DNA from: Octopus vulgaris
Taxonomy: Eukaryota
Length of the DNA stretch: 64,000 nt
Direction of reading: 5' to 3'
Assembly (NCBI GenBank): GCA_951406725.2
Contig: OX597824.1
Coordinates: forward strand, 44,206,001 to 44,270,000
Part shown: in pieces, positions 17,689 to 17,935 of the stretch
Numbering within the stretch: the stretch's first letter is position 1
Layout of the letters: every line of letters begins with the position of its first letter
Translations under genes and position numbers: made by a program
The notes under the pieces: generated by a model
What the model saw: the letters and a program-made list of their open reading frames with translations, nothing else
What the model was told of the DNA's origin: nothing
Database searches by the model: none

Positions 17689-17935
17689 TTGCAGCGTGGA
17701 AGGTGTTTGTAAGCCATTAAAGAAACATTTAAAAACTTCAACATTTAAATTTAATTTGCCAAAATATTTTCGTCGCTTTGAGACCGCGACCTGTGCACTG
17801 ACAAAAATATCGTGCTAACAGGTCGAGGTCTCAAAGCGATGAAAATATTTTGACAAATTAAATTTAAATGTTGAAGTGAATCTAACGGTTTTTGTGTGTT
17901 TCTTAAATGGCTTATAAACACCTTCAACGCTGCAA
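17689..17935. mobile_element. Fold-back element carrying a variant hammerhead motif (AUAU loop)
   Basis: Inverted arms ~17689-17794 / ~17817-17935; the - strand at 17805-17755 reads TTTGTCA-GTGCACA-G-GTCGC..GCGAC-GAAA-ATAT-TT-TGGCAAA. Confidence 0.65.

What the first reader, a model, noticed from the sequence alone, without database searches (positions are those of the whole stretch)
17689..17935. Hammerhead variant with apparent G3-C8 swapped catalytic core
Seen: the - strand at 17805-17755 has a 7-bp stem I (TTTGTCA/TGRCAAA), a 5-bp stem II (GTCGC/GCGAC), GAAA, palindromic AUAU loop and UU, but the core reads GUGcACA. The sister arm keeps AACAG (17817-17821), implying a consensus GUGAACA instead of CUGAnGA. 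Established: C3-G8 is a tertiary pair in the hammerhead core and the compensatory G3-C8 swap can retain activity; standard pattern searches miss it. Inference: a natural covariant family, which supports selection on ribozyme function.
Basis: partly seen in the sequence, partly recalled or inferred. Interest (0 to 1): 0.8.

Follow-up and report, generated by a model that had tools for sequence, protein, structure and literature searches.

The report
Swapped-core hammerhead in Penelope retrotransposon ends
This stretch is a damaged copy of the end of an animal jumping gene whose family carries a self-cutting hammerhead RNA motif with two paired core letters swapped, a swap known to work in the lab and seen here beside a sister family with the usual letters; cutting itself has not been shown.

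Summary
Confirmed and extended. Window 17689-17998 is an inverted pair of pseudo-LTRs of a Penelope-like element (PLE), captured in a 1.9-kb non-autonomous Helitron. The minus-strand arm has a minimal type I hammerhead layout. The family core is GUGAACA, G3-C8: 4227 matches against 2 for C3-G8. The window copy has a private A6C (1 of 30) and sits in a long hairpin, so it is probably inactive. The motif lies 92 nt before the start of an RT + GIY-YIG ORF. Sister PLE lineages (55% protein identity) keep C3-G8 at the same place, with compensatory stems: real covariation, but one event. Lab mutagenesis found this swap the only double change that rescues the motif. Against strict selection for cleavage: a young sister family has C for the usual A9 (94 of 100), and only 2 of 100 copies begin near the cut site. 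No natural G3-C8 was found in print (one key paper unreadable). This scan noted it before in two protist PLEs. New variant of a known kind.

The parts
16574..18502 (+). Non-autonomous Helitron (1.93 kb) that carries the palindrome as a passenger; starts TC after A, ends CTAG before T, inside (TA)n tracts
   Evidence: Flanks shared by 30 of 30 loci; ends tallied; sequence
18475..18490 (+). Helitron sub-terminal GC-rich hairpin, ending 8 nt before the CTAG
   Evidence: fold -6.2 kcal/mol
17689..17816 (-). Left arm: PLE pseudo-LTR copy (subfamily A) holding the hammerhead; starts 18 nt 5' of G3 and ends at the first of two preferred 3' ends; 12-nt deletion private to this copy
17755..17805 (-). 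Minimal type I hammerhead motif with G3-C8 core; predicted cut between 17762 and 17761
17792..17798 (-). Core positions 3-9: G3 at 17798, C8 at 17793; A6C at 17795 is private to this copy (family GUGAACA)
17791..17791 (-). Unpaired nucleotide between A9 and G10.1, typical of PLE minimal hammerheads
   Evidence: PMC4209133
17772..17790 (-). Helix II (5 bp, G10.1-C11.1) with 9-nt loop
17762..17771 (-). GAAA, 4-nt palindromic loop III, U16.1, U17 (the A15.1-U16.1 hexamer is self-complementary, fit for dimer pairing)
17817..17998 (+). Right arm: inverted pseudo-LTR copy truncated inside the core, with the 63-nt 'tail' to the second preferred 3' end; 89% identical to the pLTR of an ORF-bearing subfamily B element
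17907..17998 (+). First ~30 codons of the PLE RT-endonuclease ORF (start ATG at 17907)
   Evidence: continuous with the ORF in tandem copies L245 and L249

Best explanation
The motif is the hammerhead of the pseudo-LTR (5' UTR) of a C-terminal-endonuclease Penelope-like retrotransposon. In the lineage of subfamilies A and B, the tertiary C3-G8 pair was replaced by G3-C8 while the rest of the core and the helices were kept. SHOWN: position 92 nt before the ORF start; homology to sister lineages with C3-G8; compensatory stems; inverted/tandem insertions with two 3' ends. INFERRED: in intact tandem transcripts the motif cuts slowly after U17, as a dimer through its palindromic helix III and/or with help from the element's own protein, as for other PLE hammerheads; most RNA that gets reverse transcribed is uncut. 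The window copy is a short inverted insertion made by internal priming, later captured and spread by a Helitron. It is very probably inactive: it has A6C, and a transcript across both arms folds into one long hairpin.
For: Family counts with one pattern: G3-C8 4227, non-G3 246, G3 with non-C8 307, C3-G8 2. Subfamily B: 2249 matches, 99 of the first 100 listed with C8; its core lies 0.98-1.04 kb 3' of an RT + GIY-YIG ORF, same strand, in 7 of 7 loci (Pfam GIY-YIG E 2.6e-5 in 1 of 3 proteins scanned). Tandem copies L245 (B) and L249 (A loop) run from the motif into the ORF. Sister family C: 405 matches, 26 of 30 loci C3-G8, same bulge and helix II base. Sister C2 ORF is 55% identical over 807 aa; N-termini 39%, E 8e-26. 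5 of 11 pairs change on both sides and 97.7% of cells pair, against 22-47% for slid controls. A vs B majority sequences: 0 changes in 42 core/stem positions, 5 in loop II, 13 in 147 flank positions, p 0.01-0.03. 3' ends cluster at two sites 63 nt apart (66 and 80 of 177 arms), the PLE 'tail' signature (PMC11167929). Lab data: C3G+G8C partly restores cleavage in an anole PLE hammerhead, and is the only double change that rescues this motif in full pairwise mutagenesis (PMC9901934). No other letter at 5% or more in the core in contigs of four runs labelled as four organisms.
Against: Cleavage is not shown. The 3-8 covariation is a single event among three lineages, and the 12 aligned rows are related, so the shuffle controls overstate significance. 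Family C2, young (many intact ~1310-aa ORFs) and abundant (3481 matches), has C instead of A at position 9 in 94 of 100 listed copies (4 A, 2 T): an uncompensated core change did not stop amplification. Copies rarely begin at the cut site (2 of 100; 1 of 98 in a core-biased sample). In the anole PLE, hammerhead mutants did not affect insertion in vitro. The predicted fold extends helix I by a G3-U17 wobble, which could compete with the G3-C8 pair. The one ORF-linked subfamily A copy (L249) has a decayed core (G3-G8). Fold z-scores are weak for 4 of 5 stretches folded.
Confidence: 0.6

Rival explanations
1. Vestigial or non-catalytic hammerhead. The fold is kept for another job (protein binding, splicing of the adjacent intron, translation control). 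Catalysis is relaxed in this PLE clade, and the G3-C8 state was reached by drift, or is kept as a structural pair without useful cutting.
For: A9C dominant in young family C2 (94 of 100); copies keep the uncut motif; hammerhead mutants do not affect insertion in vitro in another PLE; Naiad PLEs thrive without canonical hammerheads (PMC8557442); PLE hammerheads are slow in vitro.
Against: Of all double changes, the one fixed is the only one known to rescue this motif. U4, G5, A6, G12, A13, A14, A15.1 and U16.1 are kept across lineages whose flanks barely align, apart from this copy's A6C. No core or stem change between A and B.
Confidence: 0.3
2. The copy at this locus is itself an active ribozyme, or has been kept for a host function.
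For: A natural A6C hammerhead had low but detectable activity (PMC3088659).
Against: A6C is private (1 of 30) and comes on top of the swap. The two arms pair into one hairpin of about -160 kcal/mol that hides the motif. The locus lies within TA microsatellite tracts and is one of many Helitron copies.
Confidence: 0.03
3. Chance resemblance inside a MITE-like palindrome (DNA transposon with long terminal inverted repeats).
For: The two arms are 88-95% complementary, and 30 copies share one breakpoint. Rfam sees only hairpin models.
Against: The shared breakpoint comes from Helitron amplification; 17 of 30 pattern hits lie outside the Helitron with varied breakpoints. The arm encodes the start of a PLE ORF. 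Canonical cores sit at the homologous place in sister families.
Confidence: 0.02
4. A SECIS element (GUGA..AA..GA), as in some selenoprotein-encoding PLEs.
For: The motif has GUGA, AAA and GA, and SECIS elements occur in Naiad PLEs.
Against: The helix between GUGA and GA is 5 bp, against about 11 bp in SECIS (recalled). The 1025-aa and 1312-aa ORFs are open under the standard code. The motif is 1 kb from the stop, not 1-21 nt as in Naiads.
Confidence: 0.01

Closest known systems
Minimal type I hammerheads in PLE pseudo-LTRs (Cervera and de la Pena 2014, PMC4209133)
   Same: In the pLTR; unpaired base between 9 and 10.1; G10.1-C11.1; short palindromic helix III; U17 common; thousands of mostly solitary or inverted copies; an intron end next to helix I as in D. 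virilis Penelope (inferred here from sequence).
   Different: Core pair is G3-C8. In that paper's Fig. S3, 53 of 56 representative families have C3, 3 have U3 and none G3; its descriptor could not have caught G3.
Natural U3-A8 hammerheads (Perreault 2011, PMC3088659; Schistosoma Cercyon PLEs, PMC4209133)
   Same: Natural covariation of the 3-8 tertiary pair.
   Different: Those are two transitions that keep pyrimidine-3/purine-8 and can pass through a U-G wobble. Here two transversions invert the pair, with inactive intermediates in lab tests.
Engineered C3G/G8C double mutants (anole PAc hammerhead, PMC11167929; pairwise scan, PMC9901934)
   Same: Same base swap; in PAc the same element class and a protein-assisted ribozyme.
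   Different: Engineered, not natural; partial rescue shown there, nothing shown here.
Neptune/Nematis-type PLEs (Craig 2021, PMC8557442)
   Same: RT then CX2-5CxxC linker then C-terminal GIY-YIG; inverted 5'-truncated copies; tail at one end; (TA)n targets.
   Different: Clade not resolved here (no reference sequences); tail about 63 nt rather than 30-40.
Non-autonomous Helitrons with captured fragments
   Same: A|TC start, CTAG|T end, sub-terminal hairpin, no coding capacity (defining features recalled).
   Different: The cargo is an inverted PLE pLTR pair with a hammerhead; autonomous partner not sought.

Membership tests
Type I minimal hammerhead (PLE type) | Helix I closes the 5' and 3' ends; helix II with G10.1-C11.1 | tested here: met
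Type I minimal hammerhead (PLE type) | Literal core CUGANGA | tested here: not met
   Family GUGAACA, this copy GUGCACA
Type I minimal hammerhead (PLE type) | Watson-Crick pair between positions 3 and 8 | tested here: met
   G-C in 6, C-G in 5, unpaired in 1 of 12 rows
Type I minimal hammerhead (PLE type) | U4, G5, A6, A9, GAAA, U16.1, H17 | tested here: inconclusive
   Met in the family (29 of 30); A6 is C in the window copy
Type I minimal hammerhead (PLE type) | Unpaired base between 9 and 10.1; short palindromic helix III | tested here: met
   feature list
Type I minimal hammerhead (PLE type) | Match to an Rfam hammerhead model | tested here: not met
   None at gathering score or among 51 matches at E up to 10
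Type I minimal hammerhead (PLE type) | Self-cleavage after H17 | not testable with these tools
   Only contigs were available
EN+ Penelope-like element pseudo-LTR | [quoted passage not shown] | tested here: met
   RT recognised by recalled motifs, no Pfam RT hit in the 2 RT fragments scanned
EN+ Penelope-like element pseudo-LTR | Partial tandems and inverted 5'-truncated copies | tested here: met
EN+ Penelope-like element pseudo-LTR | Two 3' ends (tail at one end), from internal priming in the ORF start | tested here: met
   66 and 80 of 177 arms end in two clusters
Neptune or Nematis clade | CX2-5CxxC linker between RT and endonuclease | tested here: met
   Seen in both ORFs; feature
Neptune or Nematis clade | Placement in an RT tree with reference elements | not tested
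   No reference sequences held
Non-autonomous Helitron | 5' TC after A, 3' CTRR before T, sub-terminal hairpin | tested here: met
   3' end found in 30 of 30 loci, always followed by T; 5' end found in 28 of 30, mostly A|TC
Non-autonomous Helitron | Autonomous Rep-helicase partner with matching ends | not tested
   Not searched
MITE | Fixed termini and centre in independent insertions | tested here: not met
   Breakpoints vary among the 17 of 30 non-Helitron hits

The most novel reading that the evidence does not exclude
In this PLE clade the hammerhead is a protein-switched ribozyme. The element's RT protein tolerates or rescues cores that are crippled alone, which let one lineage cross to G3-C8 (resting in an 'off' fold with a G3-U17 wobble) and another fix C9. 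Swapped-core hammerheads would then be a recurring, overlooked class across PLEs of animals and protists, invisible to CUGANGA descriptors and to Rfam.
Probability: 0.2. Interest if true: 0.7.

Novelty: new variant of a known kind. Interest (0 to 1): 0.47.

Why it matters
The C3-G8 pair was established by lab swaps; natural covariation on record in the papers I could read is U3-A8 only. A family of thousands of copies with G3-C8, next to sister lineages with C3-G8/A9 and C3-G8/C9 in the same genome, is a natural test set for an open question: do PLE hammerheads need to cut at all, and does the element's protein help? It also shows that descriptor-based censuses miss whole families, which bears on reports that some PLE clades lack hammerheads. 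The locus itself is a decayed passenger and matters little.

Tried and rejected
Rfam: no hammerhead hit; the miRNA-precursor hits reflect the palindrome and microsatellites. Using the 30 best BLAST copies as evidence of selection: rejected, all are Helitron passengers. The two C3-G8 copies inside subfamily A (L204, L205) as an ancestral subfamily: rejected; 2 of about 4780 is near what two independent single changes give (rough expectation about 1). Per-part decay rates: not used, because those loci were picked by an exact core pattern. A search for further G3-C8 families gave 320 matches against 242 in the control; the recognisable ones were decayed A/B copies and no new family was established. 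U17 as a partner change that avoids a G3-C17 mispair (lead from PMC3884650): weak, since C2 has U17 with C3-G8 and U17 is common in PLE hammerheads. Expression: no RNA holder listed; the four runs laid were contigs, which cannot show ends or strand. SECIS and MITE readings: rejected (see rivals). Lunse, Weinberg and Breaker 2017 (PMC5785218) and Martick and Scott 2006 (PMC4447102) could not be read, so a natural G3-C8 in the former or its supplements is not excluded. No paper on Helitron capture of such an element was found. No protein homologue search, structure prediction or tree was run.

Full report
Observation. The isolated 61-nt stretch folds into helices I and II, z -1.71. Rfam has no hammerhead hit. 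The motif lies in the left arm of an inverted repeat, arms 17689-17816 and 17817-17998. The genome G000 is 2.8 Gb; it is AT-rich and full of microsatellites here. That it looks like an octopus is my recall and was not tested.

Of the 30 best genomic copies, 29 read GTGAACAG and only the window reads GTGCACAG. All 30 also share their flanks: the palindrome is cargo of a 1.93-kb element, 16574-18502, that starts TC after A, ends CTAG before T and has a sub-terminal hairpin, i.e. a non-autonomous Helitron (defining features recalled). These copies are one insertion amplified by DNA transposition. An exact 36-nt pattern gave 1133 matches, and of the first 30, 13 were in the Helitron and 17 were independent insertions with varied breakpoints. 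With one looser pattern the subfamily (A) has G3-C8 in 4227 places, a non-G at 3 in 246, G3 with a non-C at 8 in 307, and C3-G8 in 2; reversed-pattern controls were 0. An anchor 3' of the motif, blind to the core and built to leave out the Helitron arms, gave 2704 matches; among the 100 listed I counted by eye 18 truncated or deleted, 1 ambiguous, and 81 readable, of which 70 G3-C8 and 0 C3-G8. G3-C8 is therefore the state of the source elements, and the other states are decay.

What the family is. A second subfamily (B, different loop II, 2249 matches) has the same core about 1.0 kb 3' of the stop of a long ORF on the same strand in 7 of 7 loci fetched for their long frames. [quoted passage not shown] In tandem copies the motif is followed 92 nt later by the ORF's ATG and reads on into it (L245 for B, L249 for A); the window's right arm carries those first 30 codons from 17907. 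Arm 3' ends fall in two clusters 63 nt apart (66 and 80 of 177), and the window's two arms end at one each. This matches internal priming at two sites, the PLE tail (PMC11167929, passages). In subfamily A, 51 of 98 arms begin 16-25 nt before G3, at an AG preceded by a pyrimidine tract and a branch-point-like word (sample biased to loci fetched by core patterns). I infer a 3' splice site there, as in D. virilis Penelope, where the intron ends next to helix I.

Covariation. A scan for canonical cores (60 matches, 14 in the control) led to family C (405 matches; 26 of 30 loci C3-G8) and, through the ORF, to a young family C2. Both carry the motif 120-135 nt before a homologous ATG. The C2 protein is 55% identical to B over 807 residues and 39% over the N-terminal 122. 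In an alignment of 12 hand-picked natural copies (5 A, 2 B, 3 C, 2 C2), 5 of 11 pairs change on both sides, including 3-8 (G-C 6, C-G 5, unpaired 1), and 97.7% of cells pair against 22-47% when partners are slid. The rows are related: this is three lineages and one swap. Polarity comes from outside: 53 of 56 representative PLE families in Cervera and de la Pena's Fig. S3 have C3, none G3. After the swap, A and B diverged at 13 of 147 flank positions and 5 of 9 loop II positions but at 0 of 42 core and stem positions (p 0.01-0.03; 16 independent A arms and 59 B arms). Contigs from four public runs labelled as four organisms show no other letter at 5% or more in the core (likeness cut-off 85%, so family C is not seen there).

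Mechanism. Most likely the intact A/B motif is a slow ribozyme cutting after U17, as a dimer through the self-complementary helix III and/or with the element's protein (inferred). The swap fits: C3G+G8C partly rescues a PLE hammerhead and was the only double change to rescue this motif in a full pairwise scan (PMC9901934, passages). Three results cut against a strict need for cleavage. Family C2 has C at position 9 in 94 of 100 listed copies of 3481, and A9 is normally invariant (recalled). Only 2 of 100 copies start within a few bases of the cut site. In the anole element, uncut RNA is the main template. The predicted fold also pairs G3 with U17, a possible off-state. The window copy adds A6C, which gives low activity in a natural case, and a transcript over both arms forms one hairpin of about -160 kcal/mol; it is very probably inactive.

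Novelty. PLE hammerheads are known, as are natural U3-A8 and engineered G3-C8. Searches for a natural G3-C8 found none; the single 'G3-C8' paper mentions an engineered variant, data not shown. Lunse et al. 2017, the largest survey of PLE hammerheads, was not held, nor its supplements, so the claim is provisional. Earlier notes of this scan report the same swap beside PLE-like RT genes in two protist genomes (unchecked AI notes); nothing was noted for this sequence or genome. What this window adds is a family of thousands with canonical sister lineages in the same genome.

Papers seen: PMC4209133 main text parts 1-2 of 4 and supplement PDF parts 1-2 of 3; PMC3088659 passages and section 8; PMC3884650, PMC6765202, PMC11167929, PMC8495972, PMC8557442, PMC9901934 passages only; PMC5785218 and PMC4447102 nothing. 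Verdict: observation confirmed; new variant of a known kind; activity untested; interest 0.47.

Noticed in passing
L273:1263-5198 and its two pLTRs (G000:C17:6330500-6337500): Young PLE family C2 with many intact ~1310-aa ORFs, whose hammerhead has C instead of A at position 9 (94 of 100 listed, 3481 matches; 4 keep A). C9 could pair with G12. A second core variant in the same clade.
   Followed up: partly
window 16574-18502 (+): High-copy non-autonomous Helitron inserted in (TA)n tracts, often in tandem or nested; also holds a 107-nt tandem repeat at 17058-17324.
   Followed up: partly
window 58482-58455 (-); also L251:2991: A canonical-core minimal hammerhead-like motif (CTGACGAA, 4-bp helix II, GAAA) in another dispersed repeat.
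   Followed up: no
L106, L111-L113, L115, L117, L127; L130, L131: Two further repeat families with canonical cores and the bulged base; no link to an ORF was found in the 3-kb loci.
   Followed up: no
L249:1180-1215; L245:1154-1180: Branch-point-like word, pyrimidine tract and AG ending 21 nt before G3; 51 of 98 subfamily A arms start there, suggesting copies made from spliced RNA.
   Followed up: partly
window 924-1136, 9677-9746, 27062-27461, 34877-34997: Tandem 62-68-nt units of one GC-rich dispersed repeat.
   Followed up: no
L063:6240-6956 (-): An open frame of 239 aa that looks like a Tc1/mariner transposase (recalled motifs) next to a subfamily B insertion.
   Followed up: no
subfamily A: Among G3 copies with a change at position 8, G is about twice as common as A in the 100 listed, more than expected for two transversions; unexplained.
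   Followed up: no
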